Below are positions 10,201 to 44,800 of a stretch of 64,000 nucleotides of DNA, piece after piece. Made by a program: the position numbers and the translations under genes. The stretch lies in contig CM000433.1 in the NCBI GenBank assembly GCA_000165345.1, positions 32,001 through 96,000 of the forward strand. The letters run 5' to 3'. Position 1 is the first letter of the stretch. Every line of letters starts with the position of its first letter. The notes beneath the pieces are model-generated. The model was not told the origin of the DNA, searched no databases, and saw only the letters and a program-made list of their open reading frames with translations.

Positions 10201-13033
10201 AAGAAATGGTGGAGGAGTTAATGATAATGATGATGAATTATATTGTACTCCAGAAGAATTAAATAATCGTAATCTTCAACAAAATAATAATGAAAAAAAA
10301 TATGATGATCAATTTGATGATTTTTTTGATGTATTTTATGATCAATCATCATCAGTATTAGCAGATACTGGTCAATTTACTAATAATAAAAATGGTTTAT
10401 TAGTTTCAGAAAATAATAAATTTGATTTAGGTATACCTAATGTATTACAGGATTTATTATTTGGTAATGATAATATAAATAAAAGTGAATCAAGTCAAAA
10501 TAATAATATTAACATTAATAATTTAAATCAATTAAAAGAATTAAAACCTTTTGATTTGATGAATACTGCTGAAATATTATCAAATTGTCTTCATATTGGA
10601 GAGGATGAATCATTTATTAATGATCCAACATTAAATATTCCAATACATGATTTAGAAGCATTAAATTCTTGTATTTCATCAATGGAGGCTTATATTAAAC
10701 CTTTGAAAAACAATCAAAAGAATATTAAAGATTATGAAGATTTAGAGAATATTAATCCATATTTAAATATGGCAAAAAGTATTAATTGGGGTGTAAAGTC
10801 TCAATTATATGATTATTCTAATACAAAAAGATTGTATGGTACAAATAAAGAACAATTGGATTTATTTTTTTCTTATGGATTAAGAAAGAGTTCAAGTAAT
10901 TATAATATGATGGCAGATATAGAAGAGAATATGGATTTTTTTGATAATAATAATAATAATATGAATGATGGATTATTATATGAACTTGATGATGATGAAA
11001 ATGATTATCAAGATGAATTGAATCATGATTATGAAACAGAATTAGATATGGATGAGCTACCTTATGATTCTGTTCCAATTATATCAGCAAATAGAACAGG
11101 TGAAGCAGAAGTTGTTGGATTTATTAAAGTATATTGTAAAATATTATCAAAGTTTTCTTTAAAAAATAAAAATAGTAAAAAATCAAATAATGAAGTTGAA
11201 GATGATAATAATAATAATAATAATAGAAATATTAAAAATAATTCTGAAAATGATAAAGTAAATATTCAAACACCAATACCAAAGTTATTACCATTATCTT
11301 CAAGGGAATTAAAAGAATATAATGAAAGAAGAACAAGTATACAACAATATCAACAGAAACAGATAGAATTAGGAGGAAATAAGAATATAATATCATTATT
11401 AAAAACTGATTCACAATATATAGATAATAATTCTTCAAGACTATCATCAATTTCAATGTCATCATCATCATCATCATCATCATCTCCTTCTTTTTTGACT
11501 AAATTACATAATAGAAGATTTTCATTATCATCTTTTGATGAAGGGGATAGTGTTGTTACATATAAAAGTAGAAATAATAGTATTAATGATGATAATAATA
11601 TTTATAATATAAATAATGGAAATGAAAATAATTATTATATAATGAATAATGATAATAGTTCAATAAGTTCAGTAATGAGTAATGATAGTTATATTTATGA
11701 TCCAATGTTGGAAAGATTAAAACATCAAATATTAGAAATTCCACGTTTTAAAGTACGTGTATATATATTAACAGGACATGGATTTGTTCCACCAAAACAA
11801 TACTCTAGAAATGCATTAATTTCATTAGGTGGAAATTCTGGTGGTAGTAATGAAGCTAATTGGTTTATTAATGTAAAAACAGGTTCAAATACAGTTAATA
11901 ATGCTTTAGATGGATTTGGTGATGGAGGAGGAGATATGCTAATATCAAAAGGAATGTTTGAAATTAATGATTCAGAAAGTATATCAAAAGGTTTTTCACC
12001 AGATTTCTATAAATCTTATGAGTTAGATGCAATTTTACCATTAAATGCTTTATTAACAATAACAGTATTTCATAAGAATAAAAATAATAATATAACAACA
12101 TTATATGGTAGAACATATATAGATATAGAAGATCGCTTCTTTCATCCAATATATCAAAAATTAATATTAAATTCAGAATCATTACAACCAATTGAAATAA
12201 GACAATTATATGGTGTTTTTGCAAATGATTCAAATTGTGGAAATAATTTAATACAAAATTCAGTAGGGAGTTTGAGATGTTGGATTCAGGTATTACCACC
12301 AGAAATAGCAATAATAAGACCAATATATCCATTAAATCCTCCAACAGTGGAAACATGTCAAGTTAGGGTTGTAATATATAGGTTAAAAAATATACCTATT
12401 TCAAAATTAGTCAATAATACAGGTATATTAGCATTTGGTGAACCATCAATATCGTTAATGGTAAAAGGATTAATGTCACCAAATAATAATACAATATTAG
12501 AGCAAGATACAGATACACATTGGAATAGTAGTGATGGTACAGCAATATTTAATTGGAGATTTGTATTTAATATACCAGTACCATGCCATTTTCCAATATT
12601 ACGTTTACAAGTATGGAATAGAGGATTATTAGTATTTGGAGATGCAATATCAGAATGTTCATTTGATTTATCAAGTTATTTAATGAGATCAAGAAAATTG
12701 AATAGTAAAGTAAATATTAGTAGAACTTTAATAAATATGTGTCATCCAGCTAGACCAAATGAAAAGAGAGGAGAGATGGAAATTGAGATATCAATATTAC
12801 CTTTATCATTAGCAGAATCATCACCAGTTGGAATAGGTAGAGAGGAGCCAAATAAAGATCCATATTTACCAGATGTAACAGATCATAGAAATTATATAAC
12901 AACAAGTGCATTTGGTAAAGGATTCTTTTCAGCTACTTCAAATGTGAAATGGGGAGCAAAGTTGATGACTTGGTTAATTACAGCAGTAGTAATAATAACA
13001 ATATTATCATTATTAATAAAACTATTTAAATAG
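7268..13033 (+). CDS. Ferlin-like protein (1921 aa): multiple C2 domains, a long internal N/D/S-rich low-complexity insert, and a C-terminal single transmembrane anchor
   Basis: ATG at 7268. The N-terminal C2-like domain reads PNPIVEVTIRNETYHTDSKEATSSCAFNQTFYF. Further C2-like blocks lie along the protein. The extreme C-terminus, LMTWLITAVVIITILSLLIKLFK, is a tail anchor as in dysferlin, otoferlin and Fer1. The size fits the family. Residues ~900-1450 are N/S/D-rich filler. Confidence 0.55.
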   Translation: MLWGHQQAYNVIVEVLEVQNLVWPIDIALTDKKTKIDAKLPNPIVEVTIRNETYHTDSKEATSSCAFNQTFYFQNMMLDSLEFQRSTVEIRVLNQGFFKQELIGMYTGSFEKIYSLPNHRLLKTLVPITIPERPSIPLGYIRLSIYVLGENDLVAPEDSFGYNDDGVGNILTVSSHSVPAPELAITYYHLNFNVHLARDVLLPDYADLSHQEADSYLPSPFVRIVALDNALETEIIRSTPSPVWNETLKFPVGIPCLDDRIVLELWDAYGGGDGPRLVAQTKLSLQDILQSELGPTWLHFYGQTTGLRGSAIDIKAVALNSFNSQGNGEQSQLRILPVTIPNSGFGVLGMFDTKNVTTFPCVAYLGRLLVSASLSRIPNPTPIKTSAQPVEIPKTDPYLFWADIYEISGLGLPSEVYIELSVGSWTYWVIPNFQKKISDSFPLCDKLGRVPDQSFALPEIDMSSDLLIRVYTKDESHSKPLFHSYIRISANEMLRYSSDRPRWYPLLSAAHYGIMVGQDIPYDEAAALSHIKHYGMLLGSFILRKNDPEKQFEYFIPSLSNIQRPPRIKYNLCRWICRAYIFQAIRLPVVESTLPDSLVMVTLGGGTVLTEIIPNTVNPDWHEALVFDAALPDDLSIAQWLNIAILHEDIVLGSAAISPLYIGFMKKSRPEWFVLQTPRTPECKARILCAFELVKIGDMMGNVLFSSLSNQFELNNIENDPNYDLINNFKAWSIPDVTPKYVPCDVHLFLIGIRLRNQNDSNNSIFSMSSSSKPIIQFEFGRDPEKPENRLWVQQATQPIHGGDSGNYNYLKSLCLKCHIPASPIFQTYIEIRILEPANVFGTKCKEFGTAYLHLNHHLPWIEEYHQRSLKTEFQYLPPKLVNKKWLSSGRKFLSKYYRGPWKLWKNKPREILSPKISIRGANSASSIIKSSSRSSLISLPSGEIIENVSINDDSFDFDNLRKEMGDFNEINSNKGIQRNGGGVNDNDDELYCTPEELNNRNLQQNNNEKKYDDQFDDFFDVFYDQSSSVLADTGQFTNNKNGLLVSENNKFDLGIPNVLQDLLFGNDNINKSESSQNNNININNLNQLKELKPFDLMNTAEILSNCLHIGEDESFINDPTLNIPIHDLEALNSCISSMEAYIKPLKNNQKNIKDYEDLENINPYLNMAKSINWGVKSQLYDYSNTKRLYGTNKEQLDLFFSYGLRKSSSNYNMMADIEENMDFFDNNNNNMNDGLLYELDDDENDYQDELNHDYETELDMDELPYDSVPIISANRTGEAEVVGFIKVYCKILSKFSLKNKNSKKSNNEVEDDNNNNNNRNIKNNSENDKVNIQTPIPKLLPLSSRELKEYNERRTSIQQYQQKQIELGGNKNIISLLKTDSQYIDNNSSRLSSISMSSSSSSSSSPSFLTKLHNRRFSLSSFDEGDSVVTYKSRNNSINDDNNIYNINNGNENNYYIMNNDNSSISSVMSNDSYIYDPMLERLKHQILEIPRFKVRVYILTGHGFVPPKQYSRNALISLGGNSGGSNEANWFINVKTGSNTVNNALDGFGDGGGDMLISKGMFEINDSESISKGFSPDFYKSYELDAILPLNALLTITVFHKNKNNNITTLYGRTYIDIEDRFFHPIYQKLILNSESLQPIEIRQLYGVFANDSNCGNNLIQNSVGSLRCWIQVLPPEIAIIRPIYPLNPPTVETCQVRVVIYRLKNIPISKLVNNTGILAFGEPSISLMVKGLMSPNNNTILEQDTDTHWNSSDGTAIFNWRFVFNIPVPCHFPILRLQVWNRGLLVFGDAISECSFDLSSYLMRSRKLNSKVNISRTLINMCHPARPNEKRGEMEIEISILPLSLAESSPVGIGREEPNKDPYLPDVTDHRNYITTSAFGKGFFSATSNVKWGAKLMTWLITAVVIITILSLLIKLFK

Positions 13034-13070
13034 TAGCATTTGATTAGAGATTAAATAAATTATTTATACA

Positions 13071-13776
13071 CTAGTTAATGAATGAAAAAGGGTTTCTATC
13101 AATGAAGTTTTTTTTAGCATTTAAATTAGAATTGTCGTAATTTTTATGTTCATATTCGGTAATATTATTTGGTTGAAATGTTTTGTATGGATTTTTAGAG
13201 TTATTGGTTTGGGATTTAGGAAGTGAGTCTTGGATTGATGATAAATTTAAATAGTAAAGATTATATAGAGATTGATTAATCCAAATACGATTAATGTATT
13301 TGTTTCTAATAAATTCTTTGAGGATTAAATGATTATTAGAATTTGGTGGAGGTCCTAGAGAATTAAAATCTCTATTTCCAAGAAATGTTAAGAAATCTTT
13401 CTATATAAGTTGAAGTTTAGTGAGTTAATAATTAATAGTTAATTTAAGAAGTACGTAAGCTTACTTTGTTTCCAAGACTACATATAAGTCTTATTTCATC
13501 AAATTTCCATTTAGATAGGGATATTCCTTTAACTTTATGATTAAACTCCCGGCTAAATAAGAAGTTAGTAGCAATTAAGAGCAAAATTTAAAGAATATAG
13601 AAAAAAATGACTTACTGAATACCAGAGCATACTGAGCATACAAATGTTCCAAAATTAATACATACATAATTGGGTCCAATTTCATTACAATTAGCACATT
13701 TTCTATTTTCTATACAACTTTTCTGAAAAGATCTCAATCTTTCAATTAATTCAGTTTCATCAAAGATAAGACTCAT
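13071..13776 (-). CDS. ArfGAP zinc-finger protein, 3 exons (13776..13616, 13552..13465, 13400..13071), about 192 aa. Missed by the ORF track.
   Basis: ATG at 13776. Exon 1 encodes ...KCANCNEIGPNYVCINFGTFVCSVCSGI and ends in CA. The 63-nt intron runs GTAAGT...TTTAG. Exon 2 begins with C, completing CAC, so the spliced product reads CSVCSGIH-REFNHKVKGISLSKWKFDEIRLI. That reconstitutes the ArfGAP CxxCx16CxxCSGxHR finger. The second, 64-nt intron runs GTAAGC...TATAG. Exon 3 carries the FIRNKY box (ArfGAP FIRxKYE). TAG stop at 13071. Confidence 0.7.
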
Positions 13777-14454
13777 AGAAAGAGTGACATTGAATTATTG
13801 GGTATTATTTGTGAAATGGATGATTCTTTAGTAAATAATATTCTAATTTGAGTTATAATTTTAAAAAAATCAAAAATTCTTAGGATGTAGAGTTTATTTC
13901 ATGTATAGGTTGAAGAGATAGATCATAGATTTCCATGAAATTCGACAATTTATATAATAATTTGTAGTCTTAATTTTTTTTTAACTTTTTTTTAAAATTC
14001 CCTTTTATTTTTAAATGAATTATATTTAACTTACATGCGATCAATATAAATAATTACATGCTTAATGGCAAGCGGCAAAGTTTACCGCCAGAACATGAAG
14101 AAGTTAGTGAATTGAATAAAGTAAGGTTAAAGAATAAACAAGAGAAATTGAGGAAGAAAAAAAGAAAATTATTGGTAGCAAATATATTAAATAAGGCAAT
14201 TGTTATTTCAGCAGGATTGATGTATTGTAAGGAGTTGATTGTGATATTATTATAACTATTTACTCAAGTTGATTAAATTTAAAAGTACAAGAAAAAAAAT
14301 TAATTAAATTTAAAAAGTGCAGAATTGGAGGTGTTACTTAAAGTGAGTATAGTAGATTAGATTAATTGAGTTGAGTTTTAAACCGAAGAAATTCTTTAAT
14401 TTTTGGATGTTTTACTATTAATATAGTTTCTGGTATATTATAGGTGGACGTAAT

Positions 14455-17181
14455 ATGAATGTATTAGATGTGGGAAAATATAAAGGTAGGACATTTGAAT
14501 ATATAGAAAAGAATGACCCTGGATATTCAAACTGGGTTCTTAGTTTAGAGTCTCCAACAAATAGAACTTTGGAAGCATTTTCAAAATATTTAAGAAATAA
14601 GATATCAAATGGAAATACAAAGAATGAGTATGGATTTTTAGATAAGGATAATTCTGGTGAGTGTACTATTATTAATAAATCAAAAATAGGGAATAGTTGT
14701 TCGTATTTGGAGTTAAGTAAAGAGGGAGTACCAAACTTAGTAATTGACTGTAAGAGTGAAAATGGTAATTTTAAGAACCAAAGTTTATCTGGAGAATGTG
14801 TGGCAGTTGTAAAGAATTTGAAAATGGATATTATGAAAAGGGATGAGCGGAAATTTGGGCATATTGGGAATGGCTTAGGGACAATTCAATCAAAATCTGA
14901 AGTAATTCAAAAAAAAGATAGTGGATTAGATAGTGCAATATTAGAGAACCATGATGAATTAGAGGATATTTTACAAAAATGTGAAAAAGAGCTTGAATTT
15001 CTGGTTAAAAATACTACAGTTATAGCAAATGGTTTGAATACTATATTATCTTGTAAAATGAAATTAGATTGTGGTATTGTATTTTCATTAGTAAGTCCTA
15101 CTATGTTTAGAATATCATCTGAAAAGAATAATAAATCTCAATTGTCTCTTCCAAAAATACTTGGGGATTATTTAAAAGAGTATAAGTCAAAAGAGAATAT
15201 TACATCAAAGAAGATGAGAACTTTGCATACAGGATTGCAAGGAATAGATTTAAAGCCTTATTCTAGTACATTTACATTTCCAGGTATATATTATGAAAAG
15301 CTAATTAAGAATATTTCAGATAGATTTGAATGTCCAATAATTCCAATACCTGATTTTATATTGGATAGATTTCCAGATTTTAAAAAATATGAGATTGAAG
15401 ATTTTGATGGAGATTTTGAAAGAATATCAAATTTAACTCCTAAATACAATCCAGATACAGTAGATTTACCAGACTGTAATTTATGTAAAGGCTGCATTTA
15501 TGATAGTATTTGTTATAATTCATTAAATCATTTAAAATGTAATTATCCAGGATTATATAGTTCATTAAGACCATTTCAAAAGGTTGGAATTCTTGTGGGT
15601 TTAAAAAAGCATGGAAGAGTATTAATAGGAGATGAAATGGGTTTGGGAAAAACTTTACAAGCTTTGTCAATAATAACATATTTTAGACAAGAGTGGCCAG
15701 TATTAGTAATATGCCCATCTTCAATTAGGTTTCAATGGTATCAACAAGCATTAGATTGGTTATCACCAGAAATTAATAAATCAAATATAACATTAATTCG
15801 TACAAGTAATGATACGTACAGTAGGAAATCAAATATAATAATAATTTCTTATGATTTAATAACTCGAAATGAACACTTTAGATCTTTTTTTGGTAGTGAT
15901 TTCCAGGTAGTAATAGCAGATGAATCTCATTTTCTCAAGAATTCAACAGCAAAAAGAACACAAATGATTGTTCCTTTACTTCATAAAGCAAGAAGAGCAA
16001 TTCTACTGAGCGGAACTCCAGCTTTAAATAATCCAACAGAGTTATATGAACAAATAAATGCAATAGTAAAACCAAATCCTCAATTTTACTCGGAAAAGAA
16101 GAATAAAGCAAAAAGTAATAAGGAAGAATTAGGTACAAGAAAGAAAAGAAAATCAAGAATAAAAAAATTAGCTTCAGATAATGATTTGGATTCAAATTCA
16201 GATATAGATTCAGAAAATTCGGATAATATAAGTTTACTTAAAGCTTTTAATGGAAAAAGATTGATTAAAAATAATCAAGAAATTCAAAAACAGCCACATG
16301 TGGTTTCTCCAAAATTTCCAAGTTATTTAGATTTTGCTCAAAGGTATAGCGATACTAGAATAAATAAATTTAGCCATAGGAAAGAATTCTATGGTAGCAG
16401 AAATACGGAGGAGTTACATTTGTTCATAAGAGAATCAGTAATGATAAGACGTTTAAAAAAACAGGTTTTACATGAACTTCCTCCGAAACAAAGAAGCAAA
16501 ATTCCATTAGAAATTAAAGATAAAGTTGGAATTAAAATGATTAAGGAGCTTCTTGCAGATCCTAATTGTCAAGTAGAGCTGTCAAATTTTGATGAAGATG
16601 ATTCATCTTCATCAATGTGCAATCTTCACAAACTTACTTGTGAAATTAAGATTAACCCTGTGCAAGAATATATTGAATATTTATTAGAATATAACGATGA
16701 AAAATACGTAATATTTGGCCATCACCACGTAATGCTTGATGCTATTGAATCAGTATTATTAAAAAAAAGAAAAACAGCATGCAATTCAGGCGGGCCATTT
16801 TTATTTATTAGAATAGATGGTAAAACTCCAGGAAATAAGAGGGAAGAGTATGTGAAGGAATTTCAAAATAATGAAAATTGTAAAGTTGCTTTGCTTTCAA
16901 TTACAGCTTGTGGCCAAGGTTTGAATTTGACAAGTGCCGGTACTGTAATATTTGCTGAATTATATTGGGTACCAGGTACAATGTTACAGGCTGAAGATAG
17001 ATGTCATAGAATAGGTACTCAATATTCATGCATTAATATACATTATCTTATTGCTGAGGAAACTTTGGATGATAAGATGTGGGGAACTTTATGTAGAAAG
17101 CAGAAGATTATGGCATCAACATTAGATGGAATAGATCAAAGAAAGAATGATATTCAACATTTTCATTTTAAACAGGGTTAA
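14455..17181 (+). CDS. SNF2-family annealing helicase, SMARCAL1/ZRANB3-like (908 aa)
   Basis: ATG at 14455. SNF2_N motifs are present: LRPFQKVGILVGLKKHGRVLIGDEMGLGKTLQALS, DESHFLKN, LLSGTPALNNPTELY. The helicase-C motifs LLSITACGQGLNLTSAGTVIFAELYWVPGTMLQAEDRCHRIGTQ closely parallel the SMARCAL1/ZRANB3 motif V-VI region. An acidic/Ser-rich insert lies between the lobes. TAA stop. Confidence 0.8.
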   Translation: MNVLDVGKYKGRTFEYIEKNDPGYSNWVLSLESPTNRTLEAFSKYLRNKISNGNTKNEYGFLDKDNSGECTIINKSKIGNSCSYLELSKEGVPNLVIDCKSENGNFKNQSLSGECVAVVKNLKMDIMKRDERKFGHIGNGLGTIQSKSEVIQKKDSGLDSAILENHDELEDILQKCEKELEFLVKNTTVIANGLNTILSCKMKLDCGIVFSLVSPTMFRISSEKNNKSQLSLPKILGDYLKEYKSKENITSKKMRTLHTGLQGIDLKPYSSTFTFPGIYYEKLIKNISDRFECPIIPIPDFILDRFPDFKKYEIEDFDGDFERISNLTPKYNPDTVDLPDCNLCKGCIYDSICYNSLNHLKCNYPGLYSSLRPFQKVGILVGLKKHGRVLIGDEMGLGKTLQALSIITYFRQEWPVLVICPSSIRFQWYQQALDWLSPEINKSNITLIRTSNDTYSRKSNIIIISYDLITRNEHFRSFFGSDFQVVIADESHFLKNSTAKRTQMIVPLLHKARRAILLSGTPALNNPTELYEQINAIVKPNPQFYSEKKNKAKSNKEELGTRKKRKSRIKKLASDNDLDSNSDIDSENSDNISLLKAFNGKRLIKNNQEIQKQPHVVSPKFPSYLDFAQRYSDTRINKFSHRKEFYGSRNTEELHLFIRESVMIRRLKKQVLHELPPKQRSKIPLEIKDKVGIKMIKELLADPNCQVELSNFDEDDSSSSMCNLHKLTCEIKINPVQEYIEYLLEYNDEKYVIFGHHHVMLDAIESVLLKKRKTACNSGGPFLFIRIDGKTPGNKREEYVKEFQNNENCKVALLSITACGQGLNLTSAGTVIFAELYWVPGTMLQAEDRCHRIGTQYSCINIHYLIAEETLDDKMWGTLCRKQKIMASTLDGIDQRKNDIQHFHFKQG

Positions 17182-17651: not shown

Positions 17652-18137
17652 TTAATCGGCTCTGTTCTTTCTTCGTCTAATATTGTTTGAAGATATTTTA
17701 CTGTCTTCATTATTTACAGTTGTTTCCTTACTTTTCTCAGAATCACTAGAATTTTTATCAGAACTTGATGTTTGATTTGCTTCTGAAGATCTTAGCTGTT
17801 CCTCTTTTTCTCTTTTTCTTATTGATGAAATAACATANAATGCACCAACAATAGTTAAAACAGTAACAATATACATTGAATAAGTAGTAAAGTCATCCAT
17901 TTCTTCTGGTCTATAGAAATAAGCTTTCCATAATGCAGCTGAAGTTGCTGCTCCAATTGCTACCATACTTACATAATTAATATCATCAGACTCTGTTGAG
18001 GAAAGAGGATCAGCATCAATCATACCGTACAAGTTCCATATATCAGCAGTTCTTGTGTTATTTGTTGTTTGAATTGTTTTTTCTTCAATTTCCTCTGTTT
18101 TACTTTTATTATTATTCTCGTTATTTGAATTTGTCAT
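17652..18137 (-). CDS. Hypothetical small membrane protein (161 aa; one X from an N at 17838)
   Basis: ATG at 18137. The central hydrophobic segments VSMVAIGAATSAALW and YIVTVLTIVGA are flanked by N/S/K-rich low complexity. No recognisable domain. Confidence 0.35.
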   Translation of the reverse strand: MTNSNNENNNKSKTEEIEEKTIQTTNNTRTADIWNLYGMIDADPLSSTESDDINYVSMVAIGAATSAALWKAYFYRPEEMDDFTTYSMYIVTVLTIVGAXYVISSIRKREKEEQLRSSEANQTSSSDKNSSDSEKSKETTVNNEDSKISSNNIRRRKNRAD

Positions 18138-36166: not shown

Positions 36167-38125
36167 TTAAATTTCTTCTTCAAATTTATATCTGAAAAAT
36201 TCATGTCTTAGAGCCATTTCAGGGGTAGGTCTTAAATTAGGATCTGGTCTCAAAATATATCTAATAAATTTGGCCAACATAATATGTTTTTTATGTACTA
36301 AATTCTCAAGAGGTCTACAGTCATTAACTCTTTTAATAGAAGTATTGCTTGAACTTCCTTCTGGCCAATTTAAAATATATTTATACTCTTCACTAGGGTG
36401 GTGGTTATTATTATTACTGATTTTTAATCTATTAACATATTTCTTCCCAGATTTACTACTATTATAAGCTTTTTTAAGCATGTAATCAGGAAATGGTTCA
36501 ATAATCTTTTCAATCATAGCTAAATGTTCCATATGTTCATGTGTTTTAAATAGTAATACACCTGTATAAAGTTCCATTAGAATACAACCAAAACCCCACA
36601 TATCACTAGACATATCCCATCCTAAATCTAAAATTACTTCAGGAGCTCTATATTGTCTTGTATTAATAACACTACCATGATAATCATGTTCATAAGTTGC
36701 TGCACCAAAATCAATCAATCTAATTTCAGGACGTACTGGTCTTCTAATTAATGCACCAGGATGTCTTGGAGCATTTACCCATATATAATTATTATCAGTA
36801 AATAATATATTCTCAAGTTTAAGATCAGTATGAGTTAATTTCATCTTTCTTAAAAAAGATAAAGCTAATAAAAATTGTTCTGAAATATTCTGAATATCAG
36901 CAAGAAAGAAACCTCTTGAACAATTACCATCTAAAAAATCAAATAAACTTGGTCCAAGTTTTTCAAATACAAGACACATATTTGAGTTATTAAATAAAAA
37001 TGCATTATATAACATAACGCAATATGAATATTCACCAAATTTATCTTCCATATTAATATCTCTAAGAATTTCTGCTTCAATTTTTGCTGCTGATGTATAT
37101 CTTTGTACATCTCTTATTACCTTTATTGCAACTTTTCTTTTTCTTTTTAAATCTTCACATTCAAAAACTCTTCCAAAAGTACCTTCTCCTATAATATCTA
37201 ATATACGATATCTTGAAGTTAAATATTGTCCAACATACCATTGAAAATGTTCTATTTCATCTGAATTTGTATTATTATTATTATTATTATTATTATGATA
37301 ATTATTATTCATATTATTATTATTACTATTATTATTATTATTGTTGTTATTTCTATTACGATATTCTCTAGATAATTCATTATCTTGAGAATAATCTAAT
37401 GAATCATCTGAATATCTAACTTTTTTATTAGAATTATTATAATATGTAATTGAAGAACCACGAGAATCATATGATCTATATTCATTAATTCCTATATCTT
37501 TATATTTTAACATTCCACTTGCACTACTTAATCCTCTTCTTTTCTTAATTTCATTATTATCATAATACTTATGATAATAATTACTATTAATATTATTATT
37601 AACATTTTTACTATGTAACATAATATTATATCCAGGTTTTAATCCATAATTTGTTATATCATGATTGTTATCATTATTATTATCACAATTATTAGTATTT
37701 ATATTCATATTCATATTTATATTGTTATTATTATTTCCATAATATCTTTTTTGATAGTAACTATTACCATCATTACTATAATTTATATTGTCTAATTGTT
37801 TTTCTGTTGATGCAACATATAGTGTTTCATATTCATACTCTGGCATTAAATTTATTCTAGAAGTATTAATACCAGAATTTGAATTATTAATAATATTTCT
37901 ATTTCCAACATATGTATTGTTTATTTCATTCTTTCTATGTTTAATTCCTGTTCTTCTACTTTCATAATAAGTTCTTTTTCTATTATTTTGTGGTAAATCT
38001 ACATAATCATCTACATAATAGCTATTCATATATTCATTACCACTCATATTTCTGGATATTTCATTATATTTATTATTAACATTAATATAGTTTAATCCAT
38101 TTCTGAATTTTGTTCTTTGGTCCAT
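36167..38125 (-). CDS. LAMMER/CLK-family dual-specificity protein kinase (CMGC group)
   Basis: ATG at 38125. The kinase domain includes GEGTFGRV, VAIKVIR, HTDLKLENILF, DFGAAT and the diagnostic LAMMER-like motif EHLAMIEKIIEPFP (canonical EHLAMMERILGPLP). The N-terminal 300 aa is N/Y-rich low complexity. TAA stop. Confidence 0.85.
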   Translation of the reverse strand: MDQRTKFRNGLNYINVNNKYNEISRNMSGNEYMNSYYVDDYVDLPQNNRKRTYYESRRTGIKHRKNEINNTYVGNRNIINNSNSGINTSRINLMPEYEYETLYVASTEKQLDNINYSNDGNSYYQKRYYGNNNNNINMNMNINTNNCDNNNDNNHDITNYGLKPGYNIMLHSKNVNNNINSNYYHKYYDNNEIKKRRGLSSASGMLKYKDIGINEYRSYDSRGSSITYYNNSNKKVRYSDDSLDYSQDNELSREYRNRNNNNNNNNSNNNNMNNNYHNNNNNNNNTNSDEIEHFQWYVGQYLTSRYRILDIIGEGTFGRVFECEDLKRKRKVAIKVIRDVQRYTSAAKIEAEILRDINMEDKFGEYSYCVMLYNAFLFNNSNMCLVFEKLGPSLFDFLDGNCSRGFFLADIQNISEQFLLALSFLRKMKLTHTDLKLENILFTDNNYIWVNAPRHPGALIRRPVRPEIRLIDFGAATYEHDYHGSVINTRQYRAPEVILDLGWDMSSDMWGFGCILMELYTGVLLFKTHEHMEHLAMIEKIIEPFPDYMLKKAYNSSKSGKKYVNRLKISNNNNHHPSEEYKYILNWPEGSSSNTSIKRVNDCRPLENLVHKKHIMLAKFIRYILRPDPNLRPTPEMALRHEFFRYKFEEEI

Positions 38126-38911
38126 ATTTAAAAATTTAATTAATTATATGTAATTTACATAATATATTCAAATTATTAATATTATTAGATTCTTTATAAA
38201 TAAAACTTTTAATTTATCTGAATCTTGCATTTATTAGGGTATTTATAATCCCATAATTTTCATTAGCATTAATATAGTCACAATAATACGAGAATTTTTT
38301 TTTTTCTTTTCTTTTTTAATTATATTTCCAAAAAAAAAAAAAAAAAAATATAAATAAAATAATTTAATTAAATTTACCAAATCTTACTTGAATAATTGAT
38401 ATTGCTTAATTTTAATTTGAAATTTTTACAGTAAATGTTAGTATAATTCACTATTGGACTTTACTATATATTCTATTTCGTTTTTAACCCTTACTTCCTT
38501 GTATATTTATCTCAACAAGAATAAATAATAAACTTGGAAGAGAACATATATATATATATTGTTTATACTTGTACTTAAAACTCTAATATATATTTATACA
38601 TTATTATATATAAATATATATTCTTATATAGCATTGTATTTATGATATATTAATTATTATTATATTTATCTTGATTATATCTTTTTTTTGATTTTTAAAT
38701 TGTTTTTAATTTTAATTTTTTTTCTTCAATTATTTTACTTTATTACTATTTATTTTTATAATATAAATTTATTTTATATAATAACAGTCTGGACTGTACA
38801 AAAAGGCGGGAATTATGGGTTAAATTATATTATATACATATATAAATATAATACAATATATTATATATTGTAAATAGTATATTTCTATATATATAATTTT
38901 ACATTATATAA

Positions 38912-39002
38912 TTTTATATTGTATTATTATATATTGTATTATTATATATTGTATTATTTTATATTGTATTATTTTATATTATATTATTTTATATTATATT
39001 AC
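38912..39002. repeat. Degenerate ~15-bp tandem repeat (ATATTGTATTATTAT / ATATTATATTATTTT), about 6 copies
   Basis: Direct reading of 38912-39002 in the 1-kb spacer between the LAMMER kinase gene and the next gene. Confidence 0.6.
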
Positions 39003-39187
39003 ATAAATGTATATATGTATTTTAAATAGATTTTTTAATTGATAGATTAATTAGTGTGATTTAATTATTTGAATGTATAGTAAATAGGATGAAAAAAGAG
39101 AGGAATTGATAAAGCTTTATATTCTTTCATAAACTTTTATACAGAATAATGATATGGTTGCTATTCGACTTGTATTATTATTATTAT

Positions 39188-39985
39188 TTAGCATTCTTGA
39201 GAAAGAATCTCTTTGATACCATCAATTTCATCTTGAGTGAAATAATTAGTACAACTTTGAACATTTGATGTGAGATTACTGCTACTACTCGTGTTGCTAT
39301 TTGCATTTCTATTTGTGTTGATATTTGTATAATAACTTGTAGAGCTACTTGCGTTATATGAAAAAGAAGAAGAAGTGGAATGAATTGAAAGATCTTTAAC
39401 TAATTCATCAATTAGAATGGTGTCTTCTTCAGAAAAGAAATTTTGATTTTGAAAAGAGGAATTATTTATCATCGTATTATTATTATTATTATTATTGTTA
39501 TTTTTTAGATGATTAGAGGAATTTTTGACAGACAATAGTTTGTTTTTAATAATATCAGATAATCTAGTACTTGATACAGATTCATTTGGAGAAAAATTAC
39601 AATAGTTGGTATAATCAGATAATATTTCTTCTTGAATAACTGAATTATCTTCACTGGAAATTGGTTCTTCATTATCACTACAAGTGTCATCATATTTGTT
39701 TAGTTTGTTTAATTGATCATCATTTTGACTAATTAACTTGAGTTCATTTAATTGATTAACCAACCAGATATCATTGTATGAACAAGGTAACAAAAAAACC
39801 TAAAGAAATCATCAATATTAATTTATTATAATAATTATTATCATTATTTTTTAAAAAAAAAATTAATAACTCACTTTATTATTTAAAGTTTCTTGAAGTG
39901 AATCAACTTGTGAATCTTGAGAATTTTCAAAAATACATGAGTAACAAGATTCAAAAGAATCTTGTGTTTTTGTTGAATTTGTCAT
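39188..39985 (-). CDS. Hypothetical 2-exon gene (exon 1 39985..39875, exon 2 39799..39188), about 241 aa, N/S-rich
   Basis: The listed ORF 39188..39793 starts at TTG, not ATG. The true ATG is at 39985 (MTNSTKTQDSFESCYSCIFENSQDSQVDSLQETLNNK). The donor is AAA|GTGAGT at 39874 and the acceptor is CTTTAG|G at 39800 (75-nt intron). Splicing joins in frame to VFLLPCSYNDIWLVNQL.... If unspliced, exon 1 terminates 3 codons after the donor. Confidence 0.5.
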
Positions 39986-41270
39986 TTAATATTTCTTTAA
40001 TTAATTCAAATAATATTTATTTATATATTTAATGAATATAATGTTTATATTAATGCAAAATCATTGTATGATTTTTATAATTACCAAGTTTATAAAATAT
40101 TATCTTGTTTGTTAAGACAAATTCACTTATTTAATTTATATTCATTAGTAGATTTATGACTAACTTTCTTTCTTTTTAATTAAATATATCTATATATTAT
40201 CTATATATATATAGATATATATTTATATACATATATAAATAAATACATATGTATGTACATAAATATATTTCTTATACATATATATACATATATATAATTA
40301 TTACACAAGGTTTTTCAATAACTATACATTATTTGCACAACTTTTCTTCTTTTTTAATCTTGGTAATTATCCTTTTTCTTTAAGAAATATGAAAAAATAT
40401 TAATTATTAAAAAATCAAAATAATAGTATTATTATTATTATTTATTATTTTTCAACACAAATTATTACTAGTGATTTTAAATTGTTTATTTTTCAATTAT
40501 TTATTATATATTTATATAATTTATTTTATTTAATAAATAAATAAATTTATATGTAAATTAAATATATATTTATATATATACATAAACATTTAATTAAATA
40601 ATTGAAAAATAAGTTATAAATATTTTTGTTTATTTTAATGTACATAGTAATTTAATATTTACATGTGATCCCGCCTATAATCAAATTTTACTTTAATATT
40701 AATATCTTCCTCTTAAAAAAAAAACAATTTCAAGAATTATTCCAGTTATTTTTGACTGTTTTTTTTTTAAATTTCCTTTTTATAGAAAAAAAAAATCATT
40801 AAGAATTTTTATTATTAATTAAACTTATTTTCGTATTTTAACTTTCTTCTCTTTTTTTAATATTGCTAATAAATGACAATTATTTTATTAACTATTACAA
40901 TCCAAAACAACGAATAAAAGTTGAATAGGGGAAAAAAAAAACTAATATTACTTTAATGGAATGAAATATCTATTTAGAATGTTTTTAGTAGAACTCAACT
41001 CATTATAAATCTAGAATTCATATATACATATATATATATTTATTTATTTATTTATATTTTTTCTTCGCCCACTTAATTATACTTTAATCATTTTTTTTAC
41101 TTATAATGAAATAAATACACACACACATATACATATTTATATATTTACAAACACACAAAAAAGCCCGCCACAAAATCATTGAATTTTCCGCTTTCCCTTT
41201 CTCTCTCTTAGCATAATCACAACAAGATAAAAATACAAGAATTAATTTAATAAAGTAAATTTATTGCTAC

Positions 41271-41279
41271 TTTCCCGCC
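41271..41279. promoter_or_regulatory. TTTCCCGCC, canonical E2F site about 530 bp upstream of the UNC-45-like gene
   Basis: Additional CCCGCC and TTTTCCGC elements lie at 41161-41195 and 40667-40678. Confidence 0.4.
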
Positions 41280-41517
41280 TTTTATTTCTAATTAATTTAT
41301 TAGATACAAAAAAATGTTAAAAAAAAAGAGAAAAAAATGCATCTAATATTACATATGAACACAATTTCTTTATATTAAAAAACATTTTCAATAGATATCT
41401 ATGAATATTTTCTTTTTATTTGTTATTTAATATATAAAGCAAACATTAGGAAGATAAGAATGACATTCTAAATTAATGATTTTTGTTTATAATTTTTTTT
41501 GTTAGTTTTTCTTAATC

Positions 41518-41571
<54 letters not shown>

Positions 41572-41806
41572 TCAATTAATATTCTAATTAGAAAATTTCA
41601 ATGATAAAATAAATATTTATTTTTATATGATAATTTTTGTGTGCGTATATAATTTTAAATATATTTAGAGGAATTTTTTTTTTTTTTTTTTAACCAAAAT
41701 TATAAATGTGTGAATATAAATTGTATAGTTAATGGATTTTCAATTATAAAAGAAGAATTTAAAGAATTTTAATACAAATTAAAAGAGAGTGAAAGAAATA
41801 AAGAAA

Positions 41807-44800
41807 ATGAGTTCATGCAATAATAATTTTCAAATGCTTGATGATTTGAAAAATAAAGGTAAATTTATTTCATAAAATCATTTTATTATTCTTATTCAAC
41901 CCTTTCTTCATTAATATATTTTTAGGTAACCAATTATTTATATCTGGAGATTATTTACAAAGCATTAAAATATATTCGAAATTCTTAATAATATAAATTC
42001 TCAAGAAACAAATATAAATAATGATTTTACCAAACTTAAATTACAAACTCTACTAAATAGAAGTGCATCTTATATTAAATTAAATGATTTTAATAATGGA
42101 CTTTTAGATTCTAATAATGCCTTAAATATTGATAATAAAAATATTAAAGGATTATTCAGAAAAGCTACTTGTCTTATTAATATAACTACTAATAACAATA
42201 ATGATTCTATTAAAAACTTGGATTTAGCAATTGATGAATTAAAAAAAGCTCTTTATATTGATAATAAAAATAAACCAATTAAAGAATTACTATCTAAAAC
42301 TATTATTCTTAAAAATGAATTAAATGATAAATATGAAACTAATAAATTACCAAGTGAAATACTTAAATATATTAAATGTAATATAATTCCAACCATTAAT
42401 AATAATATTAATTCTTTAAAAGAATTTCATGATAAATGGTTTGAATTCTATAAATATATATTATCCAATGGTACTCATGATATTATTATTAATAATAGTT
42501 GCTGTCAAGATCTTATTTATATACTTGAAAGATTTATTTATATTTCTGATAATATTATTAATATAATTAATAATAATAAATCAGATTCTGAATATAATAA
42601 AAAATTATATTATTATATAATATTTAATTCTTGGAATACTTTATCTTTATTAGTTGAAGAAAATGATATTATTACTGGTATATTTCAAGAAATAGACAAA
42701 GATGATATTAATTCATCATTATTCCAATTAAATAAAATAATCAACTTTAATAATAATAATAATAATCTTAATAAATTCANATCTTTAATTAGAATTAATA
42801 ATGATATTATCAATTTTACCAAAATTAAAGATTTTATTAATAATATTAATCCATTAATTCAAGAAAATCAATTAAAAACCAATTCAAAACAATTATTGAA
42901 TAGTATTTTTAATGTATTATTATGTACATTTAATTATAATTCAATAGATTTGAATGATACCTATCAACACATTAAACTTCTTACTTGTATTATTAATAAC
43001 CAATTAATTCAAGAAATTAATTCAACATTATATTTATTGGTTTTAAGAAATTTATCAATAATATTCCAACAAATCAAATCAAAAGGTACCAAAATTGAAG
43101 CTCTTGATTATAATACAGAAATTGAAAATTTGATTAATTCATTATTTTCTTTATCATATTATTATTTTAAATCTTCATTTAATGATATTTGTGGTAATAA
43201 TGATAATGATAATAAAATTCTACAAAGTTTAGAATTTATATTAACTATCATTTTTTCTTTAATTTCTGAAAAAGAAAGAAATAACCACCAAAATAATATA
43301 ATTGATATTCATAAAATTTCAAATAATCATATAATCTCCAAATATGTATTAAATTCAATCAAAAAATCTGATAATATTTTGGATAATGCTCATAATCAAG
43401 ATGATCATGAACAATCTTCAAATTGGATTGCTTTTGATTTTATTAATTTTATTAATGGATTAATGGGACTTAAAATACTTCATTATTCTAATAGAGAAGT
43501 ACTTAAAGGATTTATATTAAATTATCCACAAATTCTTCATTGTATATTATTAATAGTATTAACCAATTATTCAGAATATTATTCAATATTGAATTATTCA
43601 TTAAAAAATCAAACAAATGATTTTATTATTAGTGAAAAATTATTCAATATTATTATTAAACCTTGGTGTATTGAAATATTATCATTATTAATGGAATTTA
43701 GAGATACCACAAGATCAATTGTTAAAGATGATGATACCATTATTTTAATTTTTAATATTTGTAAGAATATTATTATATCGAATAATAATAATAATAATAA
43801 TAATAATGATACTTTAAATTTGAATGAATTGGATTCTTGTTGTAGACTTTTAAATGGTATTTCCAAAACAACCATGGAAAATAATGATATACTTGATTTA
43901 TTTATTAATCAATTAGATATTTTATCATTACTTGAACATATTTGGATTATTTTTCAAAATTATTATATAAATAATAATATTAATAATAAATTAATATGGT
44001 CTTGTATTCAAAATTCTTTTGAAATCTTTACAATACTTTCAATGCATAATATATTTAAATCCAAATTATTAATTTATAAAATGAAAAAGAATATTTCAAA
44101 TGTTAATGTTAATAATAACCAAAGTTTATTAAAGAATGAGAATTCCAATAAATCATCATCTTGTTGTTCACTTACAGAAAATGAATTATTTATTTTAAAT
44201 ATATTAAATTTACCAGAAATATATAATTATAATAAAAATATTAAATATTTCTCAAATACTTTTCTTTATCTTTATATATCATTCATACAAAATCTTCTTA
44301 CAAGTAATTATTCAGATCCATATTCAGAATCAAATAATAATAATAATTATGATGAATNTAAATCAGTATATTTTTTTAAAAAGGCAAAGATTNTATGGGC
44401 CAATATAATTCAGAAAATCATGTTGATTTTGATCAATCTCATTTAGAACAACTTGAAACATGTATAAACATTTACCAGATATACTCGTAATGAAAGAAAT
44501 GGACATTATGATAGAGGTGATGAAATTCTTGCAAATACTTATAGAAAATTAATGATTGAAAAATCAAATATTATAAGTTTTATGTATATTATTCTTGAAA
44601 AGAATATTTCCAATAATAATATTAATGATAATAATAATAAAAATACAACTTCATCATCATTGCCATTTATATTTAATATTGCAAATAATATTGTTGATTT
44701 AATTGTTAATACAGAAGACTTGAATGAAAAAAATTCAAAAGAAATATTATCTTTAAGAGGAAAAATAATCCAAAAAGGTGGTCTTAAATGTTTACTTGAT

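What the first reader, a model, noticed from the sequence alone, without database searches (positions are those of the whole stretch)
13071..13776. A complete 3-exon ArfGAP gene hidden in an apparently empty 1.4-kb spacer
No ORF of 60 aa or more is listed between the ferlin and helicase genes. Minus-strand translation from ATG 13776 gives a C4 ArfGAP finger that is interrupted after CSVCSGI. A GTAAGT...TTTAG intron of 63 nt (13615-13553) restores CSGIH-R in frame. A second GTAAGC...TATAG intron of 64 nt (13464-13401) joins to an exon carrying the FIRNKY box. Both splice junctions reconstitute invariant ArfGAP residues, which is strong internal validation of the splice model. It also calibrates the intron parameters of this genome: about 63-75 nt, GTAAGY donors, YAG acceptors.
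Basis: partly seen in the sequence, partly recalled or inferred. Interest (0 to 1): 0.55.

Follow-up and report, generated by a model that had tools for sequence, protein, structure and literature searches.

The report
Known spliced ArfGAP gene of Cryptosporidium

Summary
The observation and splice model are confirmed base for base. On the minus strand, exons 13776-13616, 13552-13465 and 13400-13071, joined across a 63-nt and a 64-nt GT-AG intron, give a 579-nt CDS and a 192-aa protein. That protein matches Pfam ArfGap at E=1.3e-25 (90 bits; cut-off 28.7).

The exact 192-aa sequence is already in GenBank for Cryptosporidium parvum (EAZ51269.1 "ARF GTPase activating protein", QOY41450.1 and two more). 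The same 706-nt gene range is called in three complete C. parvum assemblies.

All eight Cryptosporidium species examined keep the gene between the SNF2 helicase and the ferlin. Both introns sit at the same codon positions, exon 2 is always 88 nt, and intron lengths drift by non-multiples of three.

The protein is an AGFG/AGD14-type ArfGAP. It has an intact zinc finger and arginine finger, followed by a disordered tail that ends in an invariant NPF motif. It may be the Cryptosporidium counterpart of Toxoplasma AGFG / Plasmodium KIC7, but that was not tested.

The side claim on intron parameters is only partly right. Lengths of 63-75 nt hold for the window, but other donors here are GTGAGT and GTAAAT.

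Verdict: real, correctly read, already known; low interest.

The parts
13616..13776 (-). Exon 1 (161 nt). It holds the start ATG at 13776-13774, the N-terminal helix and the CX2CX16CX2C zinc finger (C27, C30, C47, C50), and ends after 2 nt of codon 54.
   Evidence: exon 1 alone: ArfGap 39.5 bits; the four Cys are invariant in 8 species
13553..13615 (-). Intron 1, 63 nt, phase 2: GTAAGT donor, TACTAAC branch-point-like heptamer 11 nt before the TTTAG acceptor.
   Evidence: The position is conserved in 8 species with lengths 61-85 nt. It is 78% identical to C. meleagridis, against 96-99% for the flanking exons.
13465..13552 (-). Exon 2 (88 nt). It completes His54, then encodes Arg55 (CGG 13551-13549, the arginine finger) and HKVKGISLSKW...GNK.
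   Evidence: It is exactly 88 nt in all 8 species. R55 is invariant.
13401..13464 (-). Intron 2, 64 nt, phase 0: GTAAGC donor, CTCACTAAAC, TATAG acceptor.
   Evidence: The position is conserved in 8 species with lengths 53-77 nt.
13071..13400 (-). Exon 3 (330 nt including TAG at 13073-13071). It encodes the rest of the ArfGAP domain (FIRNKY, W123), a disordered tail and a C-terminal NPF motif.
13086..13094 (-). Codons for N186-P187-F188, a C-terminal NPF motif and candidate EH-domain ligand.
   Evidence: The motif is invariant in 8 Cryptosporidium orthologues although the tail is otherwise divergent. 83 of 136 closest relatives carry NPF in their last 15 residues, against 0.34 expected.
13777..14454 (.). 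Divergent intergenic region of 678 nt shared with the HARP-like SNF2 helicase gene (start 14455, + strand); presumed bidirectional promoter. A conserved block lies at about 14030-14092.
   Evidence: No Rfam family or tRNA was found.
13034..13070 (.). A 37-nt gap between the convergent stop codons of the ferlin gene (stop ends at 13033) and the ArfGAP gene.

Best explanation
This is a genuine, expressed, protein-coding gene of Cryptosporidium parvum. The record is CP044418.1 in the IOWA-ATCC assembly, about 66 kb from one end. Two short spliceosomal GT-AG introns are removed to give a 192-aa protein.

Residues ~7-140 form a canonical ArfGAP domain. It has a Zn-binding CX2CX16CX2C finger and the catalytic arginine four residues after the last Cys. 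Residues ~141-180 are disordered. The last seven residues carry an invariant NPF motif.

Shown here: the gene structure, the domain, the fold, and conservation of the catalytic residues and the NPF motif.

Inferred: the domain stimulates GTP hydrolysis on an Arf-family GTPase through the arginine finger. The NPF tail docks the protein onto an EH-domain scaffold of the Eps15 type, as in AGFG1/Hrb. The protein would then act at sites of vesicle formation or endocytosis.

By sequence signature it belongs to the AGFG/AGD14-type subfamily. It is a minimal version of that type, consisting of the GAP domain plus one NPF.
For: Splice model and product:
- The splice model is verified by hand and by script.
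- Pfam ArfGap scores E=1.3e-25, 90.2 bits against a cut-off of 28.7, in one stretch across both junctions.
- The exact product is already in GenBank for C. parvum under four accessions.
- The same 706-nt gene range is called in three complete assemblies, and the window here is 100% identical to them.
- The IOWA-ATCC annotation states that its introns are 100% supported by RNA-seq (PMC8744675).

Conservation across eight species:
- All eight keep the helicase-ArfGAP-ferlin order and both intron positions. Exon 2 is always 88 nt, and intron lengths are 61-85 and 53-77 nt.
- Introns diverge faster than exons.
- All 7 differences between C. parvum and C. hominis in the domain are third-position and synonymous in the spliced frame.

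Fold:
- The AlphaFold model has pLDDT >94 for residues 11-130 and a disordered tail.
- Foldseek matches SMAP1L (TM 0.91, rmsd 1.4 A) and AGFG1 (33% identity).
- By phmmer the best solved relative is AGFG1/RIP.

Subfamily:
- The Cryptosporidium profile scores plant AGD14 proteins at ~125 bits, against AGD15/AGE2 at 60-78 bits.
- 133 of 136 closest relatives share the short R-x3-H[KR]xK loop, and 83 of 136 end in NPF.
Against: - RNA support rests on the published statement about the annotation as a whole.
- No biochemical evidence exists here for GAP activity. To my knowledge human AGFG1, the closest solved relative, has no demonstrated GAP activity.
- The tail has no FG repeats, so it is not an AGFG in the strict metazoan sense.
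- Several database names call close relatives 'stromal membrane-associated protein'.
- The presence of an EH-domain partner in Cryptosporidium was not checked.
Confidence: 0.88

Rival explanations
1. It is a SMAP-type ArfGAP (yeast Age2 / human SMAP1/2 / plant AGD15 type) that works with clathrin at the trans-Golgi or endosomes, rather than an AGFG/AGD14-type protein.
For: - The best Foldseek hit is SMAP1L.
- phmmer scores for SMAP1 (51 bits) are close to those for AGFG1 (55.7 bits).
- Automated names on the chipmunk-genotype, Perkinsus and Entamoeba relatives say 'stromal membrane-associated'.
Against: - SMAP-type proteins, including a separate Cryptosporidium paralogue (P0118, C. serpentis), AGD15 and AGE2, carry the longer HRxLGxHISxVKS loop. 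This protein has HREFNHKVKG, like AGD14.
- The family profile scores AGD14 about 50 bits above AGD15/AGE2.
- No clathrin-box motif occurs in any orthologue's tail, whereas NPF is invariant.
Confidence: 0.08
2. The gene model is incomplete or wrong: a different start, an extra upstream exon, other splice sites, or only the unspliced 54-aa peptide is made.
For: - GenBank EAZ51269.1 is labelled 'partial'.
- No transcript data were read directly here.
Against: - An in-frame TAA lies 21 nt upstream of the ATG.
- All 8 orthologues start at the aligned Met, and the ArfGAP domain begins at residue ~7, as in relatives.
- Only this donor/acceptor pairing restores the invariant H54-R55 and keeps the Pfam match continuous.
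- Four independent C. parvum annotations give the same product.
Confidence: 0.03
3. It is a decaying pseudogene, and the 'introns' are simply frame-breaking insertions.
For: None beyond the absence of a long ORF.
Against: - Both interruptions have GT...AG ends and branch-point-like CTAAC motifs in the close species.
- They are conserved in position back to the C. andersoni split, while their lengths change freely and exon 2 stays at 88 nt.
- Substitutions are synonymous-biased.
- Catalytic residues are invariant.
Confidence: 0.01

Closest known systems
C. parvum annotated gene product EAZ51269.1 / QOY41450.1 (CPATCC_002005), 'ARF GTPase activating protein'
   Same: Identical in all 192 residues, with an identical 706-nt genomic range and the same two introns.
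   Different: Nothing. The finding is a rediscovery of this gene.
Human AGFG1 (Hrb / RIP; PDB 2olm, 2d9l) and plant AGD14
   Same: - An N-terminal ArfGAP domain with a zinc finger and Arg finger.
- An H[KR]VK[SG]IS segment directly after the finger, without the 'LGxHIS' insert.
- C-terminal NPF motif(s). In AGFG1 these bind Eps15 EH domains (Doria et al. 1999, as cited in PMC10105704).
- AGFG1 is the best PDB sequence hit, at E=4.8e-14 and 33% identity.
   Different: - It is much shorter: 192 aa against about 560 aa for AGFG1 (length recalled, not checked here) and ~500-800 aa for most of the closest relatives.
- It has no FG repeats.
- It has a single NPF instead of several.
- The loop between Arg55 and His59 is 2 residues shorter than in AGFG1.
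Toxoplasma AGFG (TGME49_257070) / Plasmodium KIC7
   Same: Both are described as ArfGAP-domain, AGFG-like apicomplexan proteins with NPF motifs. They sit in the K13 micropore/cytostome endocytic complex together with Eps15L (PMC10105704; PMC10718435). The window protein has the same domain, the same motif and an apicomplexan origin.
   Different: - TgAGFG is 484 aa, against 192 aa here.
- Orthology was not tested because neither sequence could be retrieved with the tools.
- The localisation of the Cryptosporidium protein is unknown.
SMAP1/SMAP2/Age2/AGD15
   Same: The fold of the GAP domain is the same (TM 0.91 to SMAP1L), as is the FI..KY/W motif at the domain's end.
   Different: SMAP-type proteins have the HRxLGxHISxVKS loop and clathrin-binding motifs. 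This protein has neither.

Membership tests
ArfGAP domain proteins (Pfam PF01412) | Profile match above the curated gathering score | tested here: met
   90.2 bits against a cut-off of 28.7, E=1.3e-25, residues 17-126 = profile positions 7-116 of 117
ArfGAP domain proteins (Pfam PF01412) | CX2CX16CX2C zinc finger | tested here: met
   C27-ANC-C30, 16 residues, C47-SVC-C50. All four Cys are invariant in 8 orthologues and in 27 diverse relatives.
ArfGAP domain proteins (Pfam PF01412) | Catalytic arginine finger, CX4R after the last Cys | tested here: met
   C50-SGIH-R55. R55 is invariant. It is the first complete codon of exon 2.
ArfGAP domain proteins (Pfam PF01412) | ArfGAP fold | tested here: met
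   The AF2 model has pLDDT >94 over residues 11-130. The top 43 Foldseek PDB hits are all ArfGAP domains, with a best TM of 0.91.
ArfGAP domain proteins (Pfam PF01412) | Stimulates GTP hydrolysis on an Arf GTPase | not testable with these tools
   Needs a biochemical assay.
AGFG / AGD14-type ArfGAP subfamily | N-terminal GAP domain with the short R-x3-H[KR]xK[SG] loop (no LGxHIS insert) | tested here: met
   The sequence is HREFNHKVKGIS. 133 of 136 closest relatives share the loop, while SMAP-type P0118, AGD15 and AGE2 do not. The profile scores AGD14 about 50 bits above AGD15/AGE2.
AGFG / AGD14-type ArfGAP subfamily | NPF motif(s) in the C-terminal region | tested here: met
   N186-P187-F188 is invariant in 8 species. 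83 of 136 relatives have a terminal NPF, against 0.34 expected.
AGFG / AGD14-type ArfGAP subfamily | FG repeats (the metazoan AGFG definition) | tested here: not met
   No FG dipeptide occurs in the tail of any of the 8 orthologues.
AGFG / AGD14-type ArfGAP subfamily | Binds EH domains of Eps15-type proteins | not testable with these tools
   Inferred from the NPF motif only.
K13-compartment AGFG (TgAGFG / PfKIC7) orthologue | Reciprocal best match to TGME49_257070 / KIC7 | not tested
   The sequences could not be obtained. Homologue searches returned no coccidian or haemosporidian hits among the rows listed or named, and afdb50 was unavailable.
K13-compartment AGFG (TgAGFG / PfKIC7) orthologue | Localises with K13/Eps15L at an endocytic structure | not testable with these tools
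   Needs tagging in the parasite.
Spliceosomal GT-AG introns | GT...AG ends, branch-point-like motif, and removal restores the frame | tested here: met
   GTAAGT...TACTAAC...TAG (63 nt) and GTAAGC...CACTAAAC...TAG (64 nt). Their removal gives a 579-nt ORF.
Spliceosomal GT-AG introns | Position conserved in orthologues while sequence and length drift | tested here: met
   Seen in 8 species.
Spliceosomal GT-AG introns | Spliced junctions seen in RNA | not tested
   No RNA data were reachable. A search for the exon1-exon2 junction in metagenome contigs gave 0 hits. The published statement that CpIA introns are 100% RNA-seq supported is indirect.

The most novel reading that the evidence does not exclude
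This 192-aa protein is the Cryptosporidium orthologue of Toxoplasma AGFG / Plasmodium KIC7, stripped down to a GAP domain plus one EH-binding NPF motif. That would make it a handle on a K13/Eps15-type endocytic apparatus in Cryptosporidium, a parasite for which it was noted in 2021 that an ingestion pathway was not known (PMC7911406). It would also define the minimal functional core of KIC7, a protein needed for host-cytosol uptake and linked to artemisinin susceptibility in Plasmodium (PMC10718435).
Probability: 0.45. Interest if true: 0.35.

Novelty: already known. Interest (0 to 1): 0.1.

Why it matters
As a discovery it does not matter. The gene, its two introns and its ArfGAP name are already in GenBank for C. 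parvum and at least seven other Cryptosporidium species or genotypes.

It is useful in two ways:
- It is a positive control. A reader working from raw sequence alone recovered an annotated spliced gene base-perfectly.
- It shows that an ORF list misses short-exon genes in this compact genome. Exon 3 has 109 sense codons but no ATG, GTG or TTG.

The one forward-looking point is functional. The protein looks like a minimal AGFG/AGD14-type ArfGAP with a conserved terminal NPF motif, which suggests a testable link to Eps15/K13-type endocytosis in Cryptosporidium.

Tried and rejected
1. The 65-aa + strand ORF at 14058-14255, considered as a second hidden gene. Rejected: it is frame-shifted in C. 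meleagridis and replaced by an unrelated ORF in the chipmunk genotype.
2. An ncRNA or tRNA in the spacer. Rfam at E<=1 and ARAGORN found nothing.
3. A direct test of orthology to TgAGFG / PfKIC7. This failed for several reasons:
   - The single-sequence and profile homologue searches listed no Toxoplasma or Plasmodium proteins.
   - A search seeded with the Cardiosporidium homologue gave only two unnamed hits.
   - The exhaustive HMM search has no names.
   - Name look-ups of 20 top hits gave Perkinsus, Selenidium, Lankesteria and Anaeramoeba but no coccidian or haemosporidian.
   - The AlphaFold-database fold library was not available.
   - Paper supplements hold no Cryptosporidium identifiers.
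4. Transcript evidence, sought by scanning metagenome contigs for the exon1-exon2 junction. There were 0 hits, which is uninformative.
5. The pseudogene reading and alternative-model readings. Rejected on conservation and on the substitution pattern.

Full report
**What is in the sequence.**
- The ATG is at 13776 and is preceded by an in-frame TAA 21 nt upstream.
- Exon 1 (13776-13616, 161 nt) encodes MSLIFDE...CANC...CSVCSGI plus two bases (CA) of codon 54.
- Intron 1 (13615-13553, 63 nt) reads GTAAGT...GCTACTAACTTCTTATTTAG. It contains a perfect TACTAAC 11 nt before the acceptor.
- Exon 2 (13552-13465, 88 nt) starts with C, which completes CAC = His54. It then gives CGG = Arg55 and EFNHKVKGISLSKW...GNK.
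- Intron 2 (13464-13401, 64 nt) reads GTAAGC...CTCACTAAAC...TATAG.
- Exon 3 (13400-13071, 330 nt with TAG) carries KEFIRNKYINRIW and a low-complexity tail.

Two details of the description need correction. First, a 65-aa ORF does exist in the spacer, on the + strand at 14058-14255. Second, exon 3 is invisible to an ORF list because its 109 sense codons contain no ATG, GTG or TTG. Its length is not the reason.

**Is it more than chance?** The spliced product matches Pfam ArfGap (PF01412) at E=1.3e-25 and 90.2 bits, against a gathering score of 28.7. The match is a single stretch covering profile positions 7-116 of 117, so it runs straight through both junctions. Exon 1 alone gives 39.5 bits, exon 2 alone 17.2 bits, and exon 3 alone gives nothing.

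**It is already annotated.** An exact-sequence look-up found the 192-aa product in GenBank as EAZ51269.1 ('ARF GTPase activating protein, partial', C. parvum Iowa II), QOY41450.1 (CPATCC_002005), WKS77669.1 and KAL5368446.1.
- The flanking ORFs are the annotated ferlin-like protein EAK88195.1 and the HARP-like SWI/SNF ATPase EAK88194.1. The window is therefore Cryptosporidium parvum.
- Three complete C. parvum assemblies (CP044418.1, CP141122.1, CM109965.1) call a gene of 192 residues over a 706-nt range. That is the length of 13071-13776.
- Window 12771-14476 is 1706/1706 identical to two of these assemblies and 1705/1706 to the third.
[quoted passage not shown] This is indirect transcript support. 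I could not look at reads myself, and a scan of metagenome contigs for the spliced junction found nothing.

**Comparative test of the introns.** I fetched the orthologous loci of C. hominis, C. meleagridis, Cryptosporidium sp. chipmunk genotype I, C. felis, C. xiaoi, C. ryanae and C. andersoni.
- All have the same gene order: SNF2 helicase, ArfGAP, ferlin.
- Mapping each annotated protein back on its DNA gives two introns at the same codon positions in every species.
- Exon 1 is 161 or 164 nt and exon 2 is exactly 88 nt in all eight.
- Intron 1 is 61-85 nt and intron 2 is 53-77 nt, and these lengths change by non-multiples of three.
- Against C. meleagridis the exons are 93-99% identical and the introns 78-79%. 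Against the chipmunk genotype the figures are 85-94% for exons and 60-82% for introns.
- In the spliced frame, all 7 nucleotide differences between C. parvum and C. hominis in the first 126 codons are third-position and synonymous.

Together these findings exclude the pseudogene reading and the chance reading.

**What the protein is.** The zinc finger C27-x2-C30-x16-C47-x2-C50 and the arginine finger R55 (CX4R) are invariant in the eight orthologues and in a 27-sequence alignment of diverse relatives.
- An AlphaFold2 model built on that alignment has pLDDT >94 for residues 11-130. It shows a disordered stretch at 142-180 and a partial recovery of confidence at the extreme C-terminus.
- Foldseek against the PDB returns only ArfGAP domains among its 43 significant hits. 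The best are SMAP1L (TM 0.91, rmsd 1.4 A) and AGFG1/RIP (33% identity).
- By sequence the best solved relative is AGFG1 (E=4.8e-14), followed by SMAP1.

**Which subfamily.** A profile of the Cryptosporidium orthologues scores plant AGD14 proteins at about 122-128 bits. It scores AGD15 and fungal AGE2 proteins at only 60-78 bits.
- The reason is visible in the sequence. This protein and its relatives have a short loop, HREFNHKVKGIS, after the finger.
- SMAP-type proteins carry HRxLGxHISxVKS instead. They include a separate Cryptosporidium paralogue (P0118, C. serpentis).
- An exhaustive HMM search of 1.84 billion representatives found 7274 ArfGAP relatives. Of the 136 closest new ones, 133 share the short loop and 83 carry an NPF motif within their last 15 residues, against 0.34 expected from composition.
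- The closest named non-Cryptosporidium relatives are from Perkinsus marinus, the gregarines Selenidium and Lankesteria, and Cardiosporidium.
- In Cryptosporidium the tail is poorly conserved except for [DNK]-R/K-N-P-F-S, where N186, P187, F188 and S189 are invariant.
- No tail contains an FG dipeptide or a clathrin box.

I therefore file the protein as a minimal AGFG/AGD14-type ArfGAP, not as a SMAP and not as a strict metazoan-style AGFG. The equation of AGD14 with the AGFG subfamily is from my memory of the ArfGAP classification literature and was not checked here.

**How it most likely works.**
- Shown: an intact ArfGAP domain and a conserved terminal NPF on a flexible linker.
- Inferred from established knowledge of the family: the Arg finger completes the active site of a GTP-bound Arf and triggers hydrolysis.
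- Inferred by analogy with AGFG1: its NPF motifs bind the EH domains of Eps15 (cited in PMC10105704). The NPF here would tether the GAP to an Eps15-like scaffold.

In Toxoplasma and Plasmodium an AGFG-like ArfGAP with NPF motifs (TgAGFG, PfKIC7) sits in the K13/Eps15L endocytic complex, and KIC7 is required for host-cytosol uptake. The window gene is a plausible Cryptosporidium counterpart, but I could not obtain those sequences. The orthology remains untested; I put it at roughly 45%.

**The side claim on intron rules.** The three C. parvum gene tables covering the window show only three intron-bearing genes in 64 kb:
- this gene, with introns of 63 and 64 nt;
- a 240-aa gene at about 39189-39985 (-), with one 75-nt intron (GTGAGT...TTTAG);
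- a 1244-aa gene starting at 41807 (+), with one 67-nt intron (GTAAAT...TTTAG).

The 63-75 nt range is therefore accurate locally, and all four acceptors are TAG. 'GTAAGY donors' is too narrow. In other species the orthologous introns also use GTATGT donors and, in the annotated C. xiaoi and C. ryanae models, an AAG acceptor. Genome-wide, Isaza et al. report 688 introns with a mean of 99 nt and 22% GC, in 10.8% of genes (PMC4637869).

**Surroundings.** Only 37 nt separate the convergent stop codons of the ferlin gene and the ArfGAP gene. The 678-nt divergent region shared with the helicase gene has no Rfam or tRNA match. Its 65-aa ORF is not conserved. It does contain a block at about 14030-14092 that is well conserved among the four closest species and is probably regulatory.

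**Verdict.** The feature is an already annotated gene, so novelty is nil and interest is low. The only open, mildly interesting question is whether this minimal NPF-bearing ArfGAP marks a K13/Eps15-type endocytic apparatus in Cryptosporidium.

Noticed in passing
window 14058-14255 (+) and 14030-14092: A 65-aa ORF sits in the divergent promoter region. It is intact in C. hominis but frame-shifted in C. meleagridis and absent in the chipmunk genotype, so it is probably not a gene. Its 5' part overlaps a block that is well conserved among four species: two TACATGC copies and GGCAAGCGGCAAAGTTTACCGCC. This looks like a shared regulatory element for the ArfGAP/helicase gene pair.
   Followed up: partly
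window ~39189-39985 (-) and 41807 onward (+): These are the two other intron-bearing genes of the window according to the IOWA-ATCC gene table. One is a 240-aa Ser/Asn-rich protein with a 75-nt intron (GTGAGT...TTTAG). The other is a 1244-aa protein with a 67-nt intron 52 nt after its ATG (GTAAAT...TTTAG).
   Followed up: partly
whole window, especially 38001-44000: G+C falls steadily from about 29% in the first 8 kb to about 20% in the second half, with 1-kb bins as low as 14% at 38-42 kb. The window as a whole is 23.3% GC, well below the ~30% reported for the genome.
   Followed up: no
window 60126-60168, plus single bases at 17838, 42780, 44358, 44393, 61242: There are 18 ambiguous bases (N), 13 of them clustered in 43 nt inside an ORF. 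This suggests the window comes from an older, lower-quality assembly. Two overlapping ORFs, 59222-60199 and 60105-61136, may be one gene split by this patch.
   Followed up: no
window 13034-13070: Only 37 nt lie between the stop codons of the convergent ferlin and ArfGAP genes, so their 3' UTRs or terminators must overlap or be extremely short.
   Followed up: no
window 17652-18137 (-): A 161-aa ORF with no Pfam hit is called as a gene in two C. parvum assemblies (CP141122.1, CM109965.1) but not in the IOWA-ATCC record CP044418.1.
   Followed up: no
L006 (C. xiaoi) and L007 (C. ryanae), intron 1 of the orthologue: The annotated models use an AAG acceptor (…TTTAAAG|) and an 85-nt intron 1, and exon 1 is 3 nt longer (164 nt). 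C. andersoni uses GTATGT at intron 2. The splice-signal consensus is therefore looser across the genus than in C. parvum.
   Followed up: partly
PDB 2owa; P0118: Cryptosporidium has other ArfGAP paralogues. One is a solved C. parvum structure (2owa, also from a cgd5 locus, 17-19% identical). Another is a SMAP-type 383-aa protein seen in C. serpentis. The window gene is thus one member of a small family.
   Followed up: no
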